Shown here piece by piece: positions 29,536 through 32,544 of a stretch of 64,000 bases of DNA. The notes beneath the pieces are model-generated. The model was not told where the DNA came from, did not search any database, and saw only the letters and a list, made by a program, of their open reading frames with translations. The translations under genes were made by a program, and so were the position numbers. Position 1 is the first letter of the stretch. Each line of letters begins with the position of its first letter. Where the stretch lies: the IMG/VR virus record IMGVR_UViG_2706794662_000007. One strand, given 5' to 3'. Origin of the DNA: a virus. Its lineage: Duplodnaviria; Heunggongvirae; Uroviricota; Caudoviricetes.

Positions 29536-30051
29536 TTAGTCACAGCATGATCCTGAGTAACTGGATGAACTTGAGGTATCGCATCCACCGTCATCCCATC
29601 CAGAGTGACAGGTCGCTCTACTGGAGTGGTGGTAATTGTCGTCGACGGAGGTGTGGTGATGGATGAATCCGGCATCAAAAGGCTCTGACCGGCTGGAACG
29701 GCTACCGTCGCCAGTGAAACTATAATGAGAACGTAGGCCATTGGTTTCAGCCTCTTTCTTTGAAAATTTTCCATTCGAACTGTCCTTGTTGTTTTTCTCC
29801 TTCACTAAAGGCCGTGCATTTTTCGCTTCGCGTGAAGAACCAGAGGCAACAATCGCCCACACGTTCGCAACAACTGACGCTTGATTATCTAAACGTTCAT
29901 TCAGCAACCGAACGGTAGTCTCTAGTTCATCAAGGCGTGACATAACACGACCGCTAAATAATTCGGCCAAAATTTGACGTAAAGAACGAGGACGTTTAGT
30001 TACAGAAGTGAAATAGGTTTGACGTGCCATGTGGACTCCATCCAGTGTCAT
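29536..30051 (-). CDS. hypothetical protein (3' end ambiguous; overlapping alternative frame 29523-29774)
   Basis: N-terminal part MARQTYFTSV... is plausible; C-terminal low-complexity tail is doubtful. Confidence 0.3.
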   Translation of the reverse strand: MTLDGVHMARQTYFTSVTKRPRSLRQILAELFSGRVMSRLDELETTVRLLNERLDNQASVVANVWAIVASGSSREAKNARPLVKEKNNKDSSNGKFSKKEAETNGLRSHYSFTGDGSRSSRSEPFDAGFIHHHTSVDDNYHHSSRATCHSGWDDGGCDTSSSSSYSGSCCD

Positions 30052-30175
30052 AAAGAGTTGCGGCTGGCAATCGCCAGCCGCCTTTCTCGTTCCATCCTGG
30101 AACTGTGTCTTACCGACACATTGTCATCCTGACGCCGATAAGATACATGATTTATAATGATAGGTAAACACTTAC

Positions 30176-30769
30176 TTACTGTTTGTTATAAACAAAACCA
30201 ATATCTTTCTTGTGAGGCATATCTGCTGCTGAAAAAGCTGCGATCTTCGCGAGTCGATCACATATTTCATTTTCACGATGCCCGGCGTGACCTTTAACCC
30301 ACTTCCAGCGAACATTATGTCGACTTGCGGCCTCATCCAGACGCTTCCACAGATCAACATTCTTTACCGGTTTTTTGTCAGAAGTCATCCATCCATTGCG
30401 TTTCCACCATTTCATCCACTGTGTCATGCCGTTTTTCAGATACTGGCTATCAGAGTGCAAAATAACGTTGCATGGATATTTCAAACGCTCCAGCCCGATA
30501 AGTGCCCCCATCATCTCCATGCGGTTATTGGTGGTGCTATGAAAACCATCTGAGAACTCGCGTTCCTCGCCACGATACTGGAGAACGATACCGTAACCGC
30601 CCGGGCCACCCGGATTTTTAAGGCAAGAGCCATCACTAAAGATTTTCACGGTTTTAAGCTGGGGATTGAACTCTACGACAGGCGTTGTGGGATTGGTGCG
30701 GGGAGAATTTTTGTTTTTGTCTTTTTTGCGAGTTTTTGCTTGCGGTCGGGCTGGTGTCTTCGTTGTCAT
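30176..30769 (-). CDS. rnhA: ribonuclease HI
   Basis: [19 protein letters not shown]...HSDSQY...[16 protein letters not shown] matches the RNase H fold catalytic pattern; start set to MTTKTPAR. Confidence 0.85.
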
Positions 30770-31350
30770 ATAAACTCCTGAATCAAGCGCCGCGCCGATT
30801 TTTCCTCGCGCGTGCGCACACGCGTGCGTGTTAATAATTATTAAAATAAACAAATTACTTCCCAGAACAGGTTTTTATAAACCTGAACTGAACGAACGAA
30901 GTGAGTGAAGTTCACCTCGAACGAAGTGAGAGGTTGTCTTTTCAGGTAATACTCTCCCAGGGAGGTGAGTATAAAATTCCTCACCAACCTGGTCGTTTCA
31001 TAACCTGAAAAGCTATGGTCTAAGTCTACTGCCAGCTTAGACTTGGGAAGTTATGGATGACAGCACCCCAGAACCGAGATCTTCCCACACTTTATGAAGG
31101 GGAGTACTGGATTCAACCTCTCGAAACACCCCAGACTCGACAATCATAAAGTGACCCTTGTCTCCGCTCACTTTGGTTCCCCCTTCCCCGACACCTAAAC
31201 GGCACCGGTTCTACGCTGGTAGTGAGCTTTTTTAAACCTGACGCCAGTGACGCTTACCCCCACCCATCAGGTCGAGTCTCCAGTCTACGACTGGAAACTA
31301 TCAGATCTTAGCACTTACAATTCATCTTATGAATAGTTTGTACTTATCTA

Positions 31351-31581
31351 TCATTTCGATTGATTATTTTCTCGACCATGTAGTTGAACATTCAAGGCAA
31401 ACACCTCGTTGATCAACTCACCTAAAAGCTGTTCAACAAGTTCGCGATGCTCCCCAAGATGCAAGCACTTAATTGCCCACTCGTACAAGTTGAAAGCCTG
31501 CTCACGATCTTTCATCATTTCACGAGCCTGGGCCAGAAAATCGCTGTCTACGAGCGCAACGACATTAGTCGGGTATGACAT
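31351..31581 (-). CDS. hypothetical protein
   Basis: Start MSYPTNVV with AAGGA ribosome-binding site. Confidence 0.4.
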   Translation of the reverse strand: MSYPTNVVALVDSDFLAQAREMMKDREQAFNLYEWAIKCLHLGEHRELVEQLLGELINEVFALNVQLHGRENNQSK

Positions 31582-31689
31582 GTTGGTTTCCTTAAAGTGG
31601 TTCATAAAATCGATTTTAAAGCGTCTGGGAAGGGGGTCTAGTGGATTCTGTAGTGATGTTCAGGTCTGGAGTCTCTGATACAAAACAGC

Positions 31690-31746
31690 CTGCTTCCGTA
31701 TATTAATAATTAATATGTAGTTATTTATATATATACAGAAGCAGGC
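31690..31746. repeat. long nested inverted repeat element, copy 2
   Basis: cctgcttccgtatat...atatatacagaagcagg, same architecture as copy 1. Confidence 0.7.
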
Positions 31747-31768
31747 TAATTACAGACGCCAGAACAAA

Positions 31769-32362
31769 CTAAGCAGCCTTCTTTGATGGTCTTTTTTTCC
31801 TGATCACATTCGCAGGATCATACCCTCCCAGACTTTTCATGACGTCCAAAGGGATCTTGCTTATAGAGTGCCCAGCGTCCTGACAGAATCCTCGAAAAAC
31901 AACGAGCATACTGCCACCGGGGTTGATGTTTACTTCTACCTGACCCAAATTGACGTCAGGCTCGACAAACGCTACGCGGCCACCAGACAGAATAATCGTC
32001 TCATTCGCATACTCTGTTGCACGCTCATACCACTTTGTATCGAGGGATTGAGGAATTAGCATCACTGTAGTAACTCCGCGAGCCTGCTCACGTATAGCAG
32101 CATCAATCCAGGGGGAGATTTTGGAGTAGGGTGGATTGAGGAAGGCAATTGTACCTGGCTGTCCCCATTCAGATTTCAAAGCATCACGCTCAATGCCTAT
32201 GAAATTAGGCAGCTTTGCGTTGTCCTTGTTGCAGGCAACGTCAACATCAAATGTCACTCCAAGATAACGTTGAATGGCAGAAAACAGCCAATCAGGTGTT
32301 CTCCAGAGGTCACGAAGAGAGTTGTCGCGCTTTCGCTGTTTGATTTTTTCGGCTGCAATCAT
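31769..32362 (-). CDS. phage-type N6-adenine DNA methyltransferase (Dam-like)
   Basis: TPDWLF and NPPY motifs; about 197 aa typical of the phage Dam family. Confidence 0.75.
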   Translation of the reverse strand: MIAAEKIKQRKRDNSLRDLWRTPDWLFSAIQRYLGVTFDVDVACNKDNAKLPNFIGIERDALKSEWGQPGTIAFLNPPYSKISPWIDAAIREQARGVTTVMLIPQSLDTKWYERATEYANETIILSGGRVAFVEPDVNLGQVEVNINPGGSMLVVFRGFCQDAGHSISKIPLDVMKSLGGYDPANVIRKKRPSKKAA

Positions 32363-32544
32363 CTTCTTTCTCGATAGGTAAGTAAATACCTATTTTTGCA
32401 TTTGATTTTATGTATGGCAATCAAATAAAACGCGCCAGAAATGCGAACAAGAAGCTCTCTGGCGCGTTTTTTTGGTGCTGGGTATGGGTTATCTTACCCA
32501 GCACTATAAAGCTCTCTATGGGCTTTATTTTCAGTAGGGGAACG

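What the first reader, a model, noticed from the sequence alone, without database searches (positions are those of the whole stretch)
30860..31350. About 490 bp ORF-free, highly structured region between rnhA and the next gene: candidate ncRNA
Dense local stem-loops (caggttt-ttat-aaacctg at about 30867, gtgaagttcac, ctcccagggag, ggtgag...ctcacc, gtctaag...cttagac), duplicated gaacgaagtgag at 30893 and 30921, and a plus-strand hairpin plus T-run (gctcact...agtgagctttttt, about 31165-31233) suggest a plus-strand structured RNA transcribed antisense to the flanking genes.
Basis: seen in the sequence. Interest (0 to 1): 0.5.

Follow-up and report, generated by a model that had tools for sequence, protein, structure and literature searches.

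The report
Conserved structured RNA gene in phage-plasmid
The gap between two genes of an SSU5-like phage-plasmid holds an unannotated gene for a roughly 450-base, highly folded non-coding RNA that is more conserved than its neighbours and is made while the phage lies dormant; what it does is unknown.

Summary

The window is an SSU5-like phage-plasmid. The core at about 30860-31280 shows 0.93-0.996 pairwise identity across Escherichia, Klebsiella, Salmonella, Enterobacter and Cronobacter elements. The flanking genes show 0.78-0.89 with codon periodicity.

A conserved sigma-70 promoter, consensus folding energy, G·U pairs and compensatory changes (81 double-change cells against about 22 in shuffles) all point to the minus strand, the same direction as the neighbouring genes.

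Published RNA-seq of E. coli LF82 (phage-plasmid Cyrano) gives a spurious CDS inside this region 117 fpkm, against 8-10 for both neighbours in lysogens.

The RNA persists where rnhA is truncated or displaced, so it is not simply the rnhA leader. It matches no Rfam family, has no toxin-like ORF and no long complementarity to the element or to rRNA.

Best reading: a stand-alone, lysogeny-expressed structured RNA that acts through its fold. An RNA-primed origin and a cis-acting insulator remain open. Its 3' part carries a hairpin cap that recurs in unrelated phages.

The parts
31328..31333 (-). -35 hexamer (TTCATA) of the RNA's own sigma-70-type promoter
   Evidence: Alignment A1 columns 13-18. 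The two leading T are invariant in 18 representative homologues, and the spacer to the -10 hexamer is 17 nt.
31305..31313 (-). Extended -10 element (TGcTAAGAT; TGaTAAAAT in most relatives)
   Evidence: A1 columns 33-41. G32, T33, T36, A37, A40 and T41 are invariant, which gives the TAnnAT pattern. The surrounding bases vary.
30845..31298 (-). Predicted non-coding RNA, about 450 nt. The 5' end is inferred from the promoter. The 3' end is inferred from the U-rich tract and is uncertain by about 15 nt.
   Evidence: The conservation profile is, the consensus structure, and the covariation test. Published lysogen RNA-seq (PMC9928086) gives fpkm 117 inside this region against 9.5 and 8.4 in the flanking genes.
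31275..31298 (-). P1, the 5'-terminal hairpin; sequence varies but pairing is kept
   Evidence: A1 columns 48-73. Four to seven sequences per pair carry compensatory changes, for example CG/UA/GC at columns 52-69.
31235..31273 (-). P2, a long hairpin with four G·U pairs
   Evidence: Three pairs have double changes: AU/GC in 12 cells, CG/UA in 15 cells, and AU/GC in 11 cells. The G·U pairs are invariant (helix 1).
31166..31227 (-). P3, a helix enclosing a small hairpin and the invariant G-rich loop GGGGAAGGGGGAACC (31176-31190).
   Evidence: The pair at columns 79-137 is UA in 29, CG in 17 and UG in 9 sequences. The inner helix varies only through G·U (helices 2-4).
31088..31153 (-). P4, a 10-bp helix with a branched or irregular apical part
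   Evidence: the repeat finder I7 gives 10/10 complementary arms. Two pairs have double changes (helix 7).
31044..31087 (-). P5, UGGGAAG/CUUCCCA helix with an inner hairpin; invariant
   Evidence: It is predicted. All 12 pairs are invariant or vary on one side only, so covariation neither supports nor contradicts it (helices 11-12).
31018..31042 (-). P6 hairpin (gtctaag/cttagac)
   Evidence: Two pairs have double changes: CG/UA in 12 cells and in 1 cell. One pair alternates GU/GC/AU (helix 13).
30938..31012 (-). P7, a long three-tier hairpin (CUUUUCAGGU.../...ACCUGAAAAG; inner CCAGG/CCUGG; apical GGUGAG/CUCACC)
   Evidence: the repeat finder I1 and I3. It is predicted. Its stems are invariant and variation is confined to the apical loop.
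30886..30934 (-). 3' module with two copies of the 13-nt hairpin cap CUCACUUCGUUCG (plus strand CGAACGAAGTGAG at 30893-30905 and 30918-30930). The second copy is closed by CCUC/GAGG (30915-30933).
   Evidence: The repeat is D4. The module is the most conserved stretch, with pairwise identity 0.99-0.996. The same cap sits on top of covarying stems in unrelated phage contigs.
30861..30892 (-). P9, the terminal hairpin (inner stem 30868-30885) flanked by UUCAG/CUGGG
   Evidence: One pair is UA/GC (8 cells, helix 18). Variants CAGGUUU/AAACCUG, CAGGGG/CCCCUG and CAGGGA/UCCUUG are seen.
30840..30856 (-). U-rich tract after P9 (AAGUAAUUUGUUUAUUUUAAU), the presumed end of the RNA
   Evidence: It is T-rich in all lineages although the sequence varies. 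In lysogens, expression is about 14-fold lower in the rnhA gene just downstream of this tract than in the RNA. The terminator scan did not report it as a canonical intrinsic terminator.

Best explanation
The region is an independent gene for a non-coding RNA of about 450 nt on the minus strand, the same direction as its neighbours. The gene belongs to SSU5-like phage-plasmids of Enterobacteriaceae.

Shown:
- A conserved extended -10 promoter lies at about 31305-31333.
- The transcript would start at about 31298 with a protective hairpin, P1.
- The RNA folds into about nine helices. Six of them (P1, P2, P3, P4, P6, P9) keep their pairing through compensatory changes.
- The 3' half is almost invariant between genera.
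- In a 97%-identical element, the region is transcribed 12-14 times more strongly than both flanking genes while the phage is a dormant plasmid.
- The RNA is kept where the downstream rnhA gene is truncated, displaced or lost.

Inferred:
- The RNA ends at a compound structure (two capped hairpins, then P9, then a U-rich tract), so little transcription runs on into rnhA.
- It acts in trans through its folded shape, as a binding platform, scaffold or decoy for a conserved host or phage protein. It does not act by long antisense pairing or as a leader.
- Loops and stems are frozen together over about 200 nt, which is the pattern of ribonucleoprotein or tertiary-structured RNAs.

I put about 0.85 on 'a real, stand-alone minus-strand structured RNA gene'. 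I put about 0.35-0.4 on the trans-acting, shape-dependent mode of action. The biological role (support of the plasmid-prophage state, or a lysogen-benefit 'moron' function) is not known.
For: Identity of the element: the window is 100% identical to Escherichia phage CMS-2020a and 87.7% to Salmonella phage SSU5. The region is found in 689 plasmid records and in 232 of 5426 complete E. coli genomes. All but two of the 234 E. coli matches lie on plasmids (the listed records are 106-120 kb), and PGAP annotates nothing there.

Constraint: the core shows 0.93-0.996 pairwise identity against 0.78-0.89 with 3-periodicity in the flanking CDSs.

Promoter: the invariant pattern is TT(-35)...TG.TA..AT.

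Strand.

Structure.

Expression: in PMC9928086 table S1, CYRAN_81 gives 117 fpkm against 9.5 for CYRAN_80 and 8.4 for CYRAN_82. Its log2 values are 2.8-5.3 units above both neighbours (about 7- to 40-fold) in all five conditions. CYRAN_81 maps inside the core.

Independence from rnhA: the intact core sits upstream of a JukAB insertion that removes the 5' half of rnhA (L113, L117, L127, L133). It also sits upstream of an IS3 insertion (L128).

Not antisense: the longest complementarity to the rest of the element is 12 nt, which is chance level. Complementarity to rRNA is also no more than chance.

No known family: there are 0 Rfam hits at gathering threshold, and only chance miRNA-type hits at E up to 10. 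There are no tRNA or tmRNA genes.
Against: - No partner protein or target has been identified. Neighbouring proteins have no recognisable RNA-binding domain.
- The transcript ends are predicted, not mapped. The promoter matches consensus only moderately (8-9 of 12 positions) and the simple promoter scan did not report it. The 3' end is not a canonical terminator.
- I could not confirm that the published gene counts were made strand-specifically.
- Sequence diversity is shallow (86-100% identity). P5, P7 and the 3' module are therefore untested by covariation.
- The hairpin cap folds better in the plus sense, where it forms tandem G·A pairs and a GAA triloop. This leaves room for a DNA-level or plus-strand role of that module.
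- One natural plasmid, pFY-1.p1, lacks the RNA altogether. It is therefore not essential for plasmid maintenance.
Confidence: 0.5

Rival explanations
1. RNA-primed (R-loop) origin of replication. Under this reading the transcript stays hybridised to its template near its 3' end. It is trimmed by the RNase HI encoded immediately downstream (or by the host enzyme). It then primes leading-strand synthesis for lytic or auxiliary replication, as in ColE1 RNA II, T4 oriF/oriG or the RNA-based origins of mycobacteriophage plasmid-prophages.
For: - The region lies inside the replication and nucleotide-metabolism gene block and directly upstream of rnhA.
- No DNA polymerase is named among the products listed in the two stretches I fetched. 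A host-polymerase, RNA-primed start is therefore conceivable.
- The RNA has G-rich runs (GGGUGGGGG, GGGGAAGGGGG). An AT-rich stretch and an alternating purine-pyrimidine tract follow it.
- DNA-level invariance exceeds what the secondary structure needs.
- In T4-like phages the same hairpin-cap module lies in an intergenic region next to uvsW and uvsY. From general knowledge, T4 oriF lies in uvsY and UvsW unwinds origin R-loops.
- There is a precedent for lysogen-expressed RNA origins (PMC7157519).
Against: - The element has a RepB-family initiator 17 kb away and is typed IncFIB or rep_cluster_488.
- pFY-1.p1 is maintained without the RNA.
- The RNA is retained where rnhA is truncated.
- There is no inflection of GC skew at the locus.
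- No antisense copy-control RNA (Rfam RNAI) was detected.
- No R-loop data exist.
Confidence: 0.15
2. Cis-acting leader or insulator of the early operon, an immunity-type device. A constitutive promoter makes a structured leader whose 3' structures stop transcription before rnhA and the genes beyond it in lysogens. Read-through or processing changes on induction. This would be analogous in logic to P1 c4, P4 CI or N15 CA RNAs.
For: - The RNA has the same orientation as the downstream genes.
- Expression is about 14-fold lower in rnhA, just past the RNA 3' end, in lysogens.
- Mutually exclusive pairings are predicted around the two 13-mers and the A-rich CUGAAAAGACAACC segment.
- SSU5 itself has an anti-repressor gene three genes further downstream.
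- RNA-based immunity is a recurring theme in phage-plasmids (general knowledge).
Against: - About 400 nt of near-invariant sequence is far more than an attenuator needs.
- There is no match to Rfam C4 at E up to 10.
- No complementary target of 13 nt or more exists downstream or elsewhere.
- The RNA is kept when rnhA is destroyed or when unrelated cargo (JukAB, IS3) is inserted between it and rnhA.
- A separate promoter-like AT-rich stretch precedes rnhA.
Confidence: 0.15
3. A plus-strand RNA, or a short plus-strand antisense RNA that covers the 3' module of the minus-strand RNA.
For: - The plus strand also folds better than shuffles (z = -4.81).
- In the plus sense the hairpin caps form regular helices: C-G, tandem G·A/A·G, A-U, C-G and a GAA triloop. 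I worked this out from the sequences.
- The second cap hairpin is followed by UUGUCUUUUC on the plus strand.
- P3 plus its T-run resembles a terminator.
Against: - The consensus fold is weaker by 38 kcal/mol and has fewer pairs.
- G·U against A·C variation favours the minus strand 73:4.
- No conserved plus-strand promoter is seen.
- P3 has a 48-nt loop and acquires A·C mismatches on the plus strand in several lineages.
Confidence: 0.07
4. A DNA-level element with incidental transcription: a protein-binding array, a recombination or module-exchange hotspot, or a cargo-insertion landing site.
For: - Nucleotide conservation is extreme.
- The 13-bp motif is duplicated.
- Accessory insertions (JukAB, IS3) occur repeatedly at its downstream edge.
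Against: - Compensatory base changes and strand-asymmetric G·U tolerance are signatures of selection on RNA.
- The promoter is conserved.
- The transcript is discrete and elevated.
Confidence: 0.05
5. A small protein-coding gene (the 44-aa ORF at 31037-31171 on the minus strand, annotated as CYRAN_81 in phage Cyrano) or a type I toxin-antitoxin locus.
For: One record annotates an ORF here, and it is expressed.
Against: - There is no codon periodicity in the conservation profile.
- Indels of 1-2 nt fall inside the ORF among relatives.
- The ORF has a GTG start with no conserved Shine-Dalgarno sequence.
- No hydrophobic peptide is found in any frame.
- PGAP annotates no gene there in any of the 12 E. 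coli records listed, out of 233 with a match.
Confidence: 0.02

Closest known systems
Large orphan structured ncRNAs of bacteria and phages (GOLLD, ROOL, HEARO/omega RNA, OLE, raiA classes in Rfam)
   Same: It is several hundred nucleotides long and multi-helix, with covariation. Its conservation exceeds that of neighbouring genes. It is carried on a mobile element or phage, and no function is obvious from the sequence.
   Different: It has no sequence or structure match to any of the 4227 Rfam 15 models, even at E up to 10. It is restricted to one phage-plasmid lineage of Enterobacteriaceae. It has its own sigma-70 promoter and published expression data in lysogens.
ColE1 RNA II primer and other R-loop origins, including the RNA-based origins of extrachromosomal mycobacteriophage prophages (PMC7157519)
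   Same: It is a non-coding transcript of about 450-550 nt that is expressed in the plasmid state. It is structured, has G-rich segments and is linked to RNase H. The mycobacteriophage case shows that plasmid-prophages can use such RNAs.
   Different: A RepB-type initiator is present elsewhere on the element. No antisense RNA I-like partner was found. The RNA is dispensable for maintenance in at least one natural plasmid. No hybrid or RNA-DNA junction data exist, and there is no sequence similarity.
Immunity RNAs of phage-plasmids and satellites (P1/P7 c4, P4 CI, N15 CA; Rfam C4, RF01695)
   Same: It is constitutively made in lysogens from within a lytic operon and in the same direction as the genes it precedes. 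Expression of the genes downstream of it is low.
   Different: Those RNAs are about 70-90 nt, are processed from a leader, and act by short complementarity to nearby target boxes. This RNA is about five times larger. It has no C4 match and no detectable complementary boxes.
GAA-triloop / d(GCGAAGC)-type mini-hairpins and tandem sheared G·A helices (from general knowledge of nucleic-acid structure)
   Same: Read on the plus strand, the 13-nt cap is C-G, G·A, A·G, A-U, C-G closing a GAA loop. A variant cap in T4-like phages and a CPR bacterium contains GCGAAGC exactly.
   Different: In this RNA the cap is transcribed in the opposite (UUC) sense. No function of the cap has been tested. The resemblance comes from inspection, not from a structure determination.

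Membership tests
Any Rfam 15 RNA family | Covariance-model score at or above the family's gathering threshold | tested here: not met
   There are 0 hits in the whole window at gathering thresholds. At E up to 10 on 30600-31800, only miRNA-type chance hits appear, mostly on the AT-rich hairpin at about 31690-31750.
tRNA / tmRNA | Cloverleaf or tmRNA architecture detectable by ARAGORN | tested here: not met
   There are 0 genes in the window.
ColE1-type RNA II primer origin | Antisense copy-control RNA (RNA I) encoded opposite the 5' part of the primer | tested here: not met
   There is no RNAI (Rfam) hit at E up to 10. No conserved plus-strand promoter was found where I looked, on the rnhA-proximal side opposite the 3' end of the RNA. 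The plus strand opposite the 5' part was not examined for promoter conservation. The scan reported one promoter-like site there (31292-31321), which points away from the RNA core.
ColE1-type RNA II primer origin | Persistent RNA:DNA hybrid at the origin, RNase H cleavage and an RNA-DNA junction | not testable with these tools
   This needs DRIP or primer-extension mapping, or in vitro replication.
ColE1-type RNA II primer origin | The region is necessary for replication of the replicon | tested here: not met
   pFY-1.p1 (NZ_CP090793.1) keeps the flanking genes, lacks the RNA and exists as a plasmid. A RepB-family initiator lies 17 kb away. This speaks to plasmid maintenance, not to lytic replication.
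P1 c4 / P4 CI / N15 CA immunity RNAs (Rfam C4) | Homology to the C4 covariance model | tested here: not met
   There is no hit at E up to 10.
P1 c4 / P4 CI / N15 CA immunity RNAs (Rfam C4) | Complementary target boxes on the same transcript or operon | tested here: inconclusive
   The longest perfect complementarity anywhere in the element is 12 nt, which is chance level. Boxes of 8-9 nt could not be told from chance.
Type I toxin-antitoxin locus (hok/sok-like) | Conserved small hydrophobic toxin ORF within a structured mRNA | tested here: not met
   Six-frame translation shows no hydrophobic peptide. The conservation profile has no codon periodicity.
5' leader / riboswitch of rnhA | Obligate linkage to an intact downstream rnhA | tested here: not met
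   The intact core (nhmmer E about 1e-151 to 1e-169) is retained in L113, L117, L127, L133, L128, L134 and L139. In these, rnhA is truncated, displaced about 2 kb by JukAB, or not detected downstream in the fetched locus (L128, L134).
Intrinsic (Rho-independent) terminator, as proposed for 31165-31233 on the plus strand | Short G+C-rich hairpin with a loop of 3-8 nt, directly followed by a U-run | tested here: not met
   The stem is 7 bp and the loop 48 nt. The scan did not report it. The stem takes A·C mismatches on the plus strand in several lineages.

The most novel reading that the evidence does not exclude
This is the founding member of a new class of large, near-invariant non-coding RNAs. 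Phage-plasmids would use them during the plasmid-prophage state as the RNA core of a ribonucleoprotein, or even as a catalytic RNA. Such an RNA could control copy number, dormancy or superinfection. Its 3' end uses a hairpin cap ([GAAC]n-GAA-[GUGA]n) that is itself an undescribed nucleic-acid signal shared by phages, bacteria and archaea.
Probability: 0.3. Interest if true: 0.8.

Novelty: new member of a known kind. Interest (0 to 1): 0.6.

Why it matters
SSU5-like phage-plasmids are common. They occur in 4% of complete E. coli genomes and in hundreds of Klebsiella, Enterobacter and Salmonella plasmids. Phage-plasmids as a class are known to carry antibiotic-resistance genes (PMC9600943), and some of these elements carry defence cargo (JukAB).

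Their best-conserved non-coding segment turns out to be an unannotated RNA gene that is switched on in lysogens. Large structured RNAs of unknown function are rare, and most sit in organisms that are hard to manipulate. This one sits in E. coli on an inducible phage-plasmid (Cyrano, PhiR41_1), so deletion, pull-down and structure work are immediately feasible.

If it proves to be an RNA-primed origin or a dormancy regulator, it would explain how this family couples its phage and plasmid life styles.

Annotation pipelines currently leave the region blank or call spurious ORFs such as CYRAN_81.

Tried and rejected
- **Rfam scans.** Gathering thresholds on the whole window and E up to 10 on the locus gave nothing relevant. 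The same held for the T4-like loci.
- **tRNA / tmRNA.** None found.
- **Distant rnhA loci.** Phage rnhA genes at 38-49% identity (L073-L081) have no long upstream gap and no nhmmer hit. The RNA is therefore not a general companion of phage rnhA.
- **Type I toxin idea.** No hydrophobic ORF.
- **Antisense target search.** Across the whole element, complementarity stays at chance level.
- **rRNA pairing.** The RNA contains UCACCUCC, identical to the 16S 3' end. Identity or complementarity to 16S, 23S and 5S rRNA and tRNA-Glu is no longer than in shuffles.
- **Partner motif.** No inverted partner of the 13-mer occurs elsewhere in the element.
- **GC-skew test for an origin.** The skew is monotonic and uninformative.
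- **Neighbouring proteins.** Pfam and PHROGs give only 'unknown function'.
- **Wider homologues.** Scans of metagenome, viral and genome collections returned only the same 86-100% identical family.
- **Hairpin cap as a terminator.** A U-tract follows the cap in only 2-5 of 33 unrelated loci, so this was not confirmed.
- **Literature.** No paper describes this RNA or the 13-mer.
Full report
**What is in the sequence.** Window 30000-32400 shows a gap between two minus-strand genes. One is an 84-aa ORF (31351-31605). The other is rnhA. The ORF lister extends rnhA to a TTG at 30853. Alignment of relatives shows the conserved start is the ATG at 30769, preceded by GGAG. The non-coding gap is therefore 30770-31350, or 581 nt. 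The duplicated motif is a 13-mer, CGAACGAAGTGAG, at 30893-30905 and 30918-30930. Both strands fold much better than dinucleotide shuffles, with z = -4.81 on the plus strand and -5.26 on the minus strand. No tRNA or tmRNA gene and no Rfam family is found.

**What the window is.** The locus is 100% identical to Escherichia phage CMS-2020a, 97-98% to phages PhiR41_1 and Cyrano, and 87.7% to Salmonella phage SSU5. It recurs in 689 plasmid records from Klebsiella, Escherichia, Enterobacter, Salmonella, Citrobacter, Cronobacter and others. It is present in 232 of 5426 complete E. coli genomes. All but two of the 234 matches lie on plasmids (the listed records are 106-120 kb), and PGAP annotates nothing under the match. 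The surroundings are the early replication and nucleotide-metabolism block: methyltransferase, exonuclease, DHFR, thymidylate synthase and RNR. All of these genes lie on the minus strand. A RepB-family plasmid initiator lies 17 kb away.

**Conservation.** I aligned 59 distinct relatives from the 84-aa gene through rnhA. The two genes show 0.78-0.89 mean pairwise identity with the usual third-position pattern. The gap core (about 30860-31280) shows 0.93-0.996 with no periodicity. It is bounded by two short variable patches. Small indels that are not multiples of three occur inside it. This is a non-coding element under stronger constraint than its neighbours.

**Strand, promoter and structure.**
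- In minus orientation, the stretch just after the 84-aa gene's stop shows the conservation signature of a sigma-70 promoter. The invariant pattern is TT at -35, a 17-nt spacer, and TG-n-TA..AT at -10 (window 31305-31333), surrounded by variable bases.
- About seven bases further on, at about 31298, a hairpin (P1) begins. Its sequence differs between lineages but always pairs.
- The consensus fold of the core is -157.9 kcal/mol with 139 pairs on the minus strand. It is -119.9 kcal/mol with 121 pairs on the plus strand.
- On 55 distinct sequences, 99.8% of cells in 122 pairs are standard pairs. Nine pairs (81 cells) change on both sides, against 21.7 +/- 4.4 cells in column shuffles (0 of 500 reach the observed value). 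Slid registers give 0-7 such cells.
- Covariation supports P2, P3, P4, P6 and P9 in that test, and P1. P5, P7 and the 3' module are invariant and so are untested.
- Fourteen pairs are G·U by consensus in the minus sense. Among Watson-Crick-consensus pairs, 16 vary to G·U (73 cells). Only 4 vary to A·C (4 cells), which is the change a plus-strand RNA would tolerate.
- No conserved promoter is visible on the plus side.
- The RNA therefore runs in the same direction as its neighbours, from about 31298 to a U-rich tract at about 30840-30856. It is not antisense to them.

**Transcript evidence.** In phage-plasmid Cyrano of E. coli LF82 (97% identical here), the record annotates a 44-aa 'hypothetical protein', CYRAN_81. 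This ORF lies inside the core and corresponds to window 31037-31171 on the minus strand. [quoted passage not shown] Their table S1 gives 117 fpkm for CYRAN_81, against 9.5 for the 84-aa gene (CYRAN_80) and 8.4 for rnhA (CYRAN_82). Its log2 values are 2.8-5.3 units above both neighbours in all five conditions, and its level is similar to that of the repressor gene (PMC9928086). The region is therefore an autonomous transcription unit that is active while the flanking lytic genes are silent. I could not verify that the counting was strand-specific.

**Not a leader of rnhA.** The complete core (nhmmer E about 1e-151 to 1e-169) is present in several elements where rnhA is damaged or missing.
- In L113, L117, L127 and L133, a two-gene insertion replaces the 5' half of rnhA. 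PADLOC identifies the two genes as the JukA/JukB defence pair.
- In L128, an IS3-family element follows the core.
- In L134, no rnhA is detected downstream of the core.
- In L139, only the last 24 codons of rnhA remain.

Distant phage rnhA genes have no comparable upstream region. One plasmid, pFY-1.p1, keeps the upstream genes but has an IS3 element in place of the RNA and carries no copy elsewhere. The RNA is therefore not needed for plasmid maintenance as such.

**Known mechanisms that were excluded.** No frame encodes a hydrophobic peptide, which argues against a type I toxin. The longest perfect complementarity between the RNA and the rest of the element is 12 nt, as expected by chance. 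The RNA contains an 8-nt copy of the 16S 3' end, but matches to rRNA are no longer than in shuffles. Neighbouring proteins have no recognisable RNA-binding domains. Collection scans with conserved words and with the flanking proteins recovered only the same family at 86-100% identity.

**The 3' module.**
- The two 13-mers sit in the most conserved 60 nt (pairwise identity 0.99-0.996).
- The same double motif occurs in unrelated phage contigs. In T4-like marine phages (L165, L215) it forms inverted pairs around an AT-rich centre of about 170 bp, in the gap between gp55 and a uvsW/uvsY cluster.
- The 19-mer GAACGAACGAAGTGAGTGA occurs in about 35 further viral contigs. The double 13-mer occurs in more than 120 bacterial and archaeal loci.
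- In these places the motif is the apex of a hairpin whose outer Watson-Crick stem differs from case to case. Flank complementarity is far above chance.
- The motif is nearly always intergenic, usually just 3' of a gene or between convergent genes. A U-tract seldom follows it.
- Read on the plus strand, the cap is a regular helix of A-U and C-G steps alternating with tandem G·A pairs and closed by a GAA loop. A natural variant (CGAGCGAAGCGAG) changes the A-U step to G-C.
- I take the module to be a stable end structure of the RNA. Its wider meaning is unexplained.

**How it most likely works.**
- Shown: a promoter, a covarying fold on the minus strand, discrete lysogenic expression, independence from rnhA, and no long antisense target.
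- Inferred: the RNA acts in trans through its shape, as a platform or decoy for a conserved protein. Stems and loops are frozen together over about 200 nt, while P1 and P9 have drifted through several compensatory changes. That pattern is typical of ribonucleoprotein or tertiary-structured RNAs.
- I give about 0.85 to 'a real stand-alone minus-strand RNA gene' and about 0.35-0.4 to this mode of action.
- An R-loop or primer origin remains a serious rival (0.15). It fits the position in the replication block next to RNase HI, the G-rich runs, the uvsW/uvsY neighbourhood of the shared module in T4-like phages, and the precedent of RNA-based origins in mycobacteriophage plasmid-prophages (PMC7157519). 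Against it stand the RepB replicon, the RNA-less plasmid and the flat GC skew.
- A cis-acting insulator or immunity leader is also possible (0.15).
- A plus-strand RNA (0.07), a purely DNA-level element (0.05) and a small protein (0.02) are unlikely.

**Novelty.** No Rfam family, no annotation and no paper in the searchable library describes this RNA or its motif. The only trace is a mis-called ORF listed as a 'moron'. It is a new family of a known kind of thing: a large structured phage RNA of unknown function. It is found in a very tractable host.

Noticed in passing
window 30893-30905 and 30918-30930 (plus strand); L165 9029-9069 and 9206-9245; L215 1915-1927 and 2076-2111; L206 1103-1138; L367-L408; L241-L360: A hairpin cap with the pattern [GAAC]n-GAA-[GTGA]n (core CGAACGAAGTGAG) recurs in unrelated phages, bacteria and archaea. 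It sits on top of stems that covary, almost always in intergenic DNA just 3' of a gene. On one strand it would form alternating Watson-Crick and tandem G·A steps closed by a GAA triloop. No paper in the library mentions it, and its role is unknown. It is not a canonical terminator in most cases.
   Followed up: partly
L165 8928-9844 and L215 1840-2456 (T4-like marine phage contigs): The gap between gp55 and a small ORF/uvsW/uvsY cluster holds two inverted double-cap modules around an AT-rich centre. In L215 the centre contains two 41-bp direct repeats. Next to it lies a conserved element, AGAGACAGGT.ACGG.ATCCTGTTTGCCACTG-hairpin-TCTCT, with compensatory changes between the two phages. This is a candidate origin or ncRNA. 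It has no Rfam hit.
   Followed up: partly
L113 4007-5619 (also L117, L127, L133); L128 4070-5190; L409 2847-3967: The downstream edge of the RNA is an insertion hotspot. JukA/JukB anti-phage defence genes (PADLOC E = 6e-65 and 2e-12) replace the 5' half of rnhA in one group of relatives. IS3-family elements sit at the same place in two other elements. One of these, pFY-1.p1, has lost the RNA.
   Followed up: partly
window 30805-30830: An alternating purine-pyrimidine tract (CACGCACGCGTGTGCGCACGCGCG on the minus strand), prone to Z-DNA or hairpin formation, lies in the rnhA 5' region. It is followed by an A-run and a GC-rich block. It is kept as a feature in all lineages although the exact sequence drifts.
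   Followed up: no
window about 31688-31750: A near-perfect inverted repeat with 17-bp arms around an AT-rich loop is followed on the minus strand by GUUUUGU. It is probably the terminator of the adenine-methyltransferase gene. It is also the source of all the better miRNA-like chance hits in the permissive Rfam scan.
   Followed up: no
window 30176-30853: The rnhA ORF is over-extended to a TTG at 30853 by mechanical ORF calling. The conserved start is ATG 30769. The RNase_H domain covers residues 40-178 and is preceded by a basic, low-complexity tail of about 40 aa that host RNase HI lacks.
   Followed up: partly
outside the window (phage Cyrano OV696614, 40268-40822): In the same published lysogen transcriptome, another 'hypothetical protein', CYRAN_43, is expressed 723-fold above background (about 7000 fpkm). 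It lies next to the integrase and repressor genes. It may be another mis-annotated RNA or a highly expressed moron.
   Followed up: no
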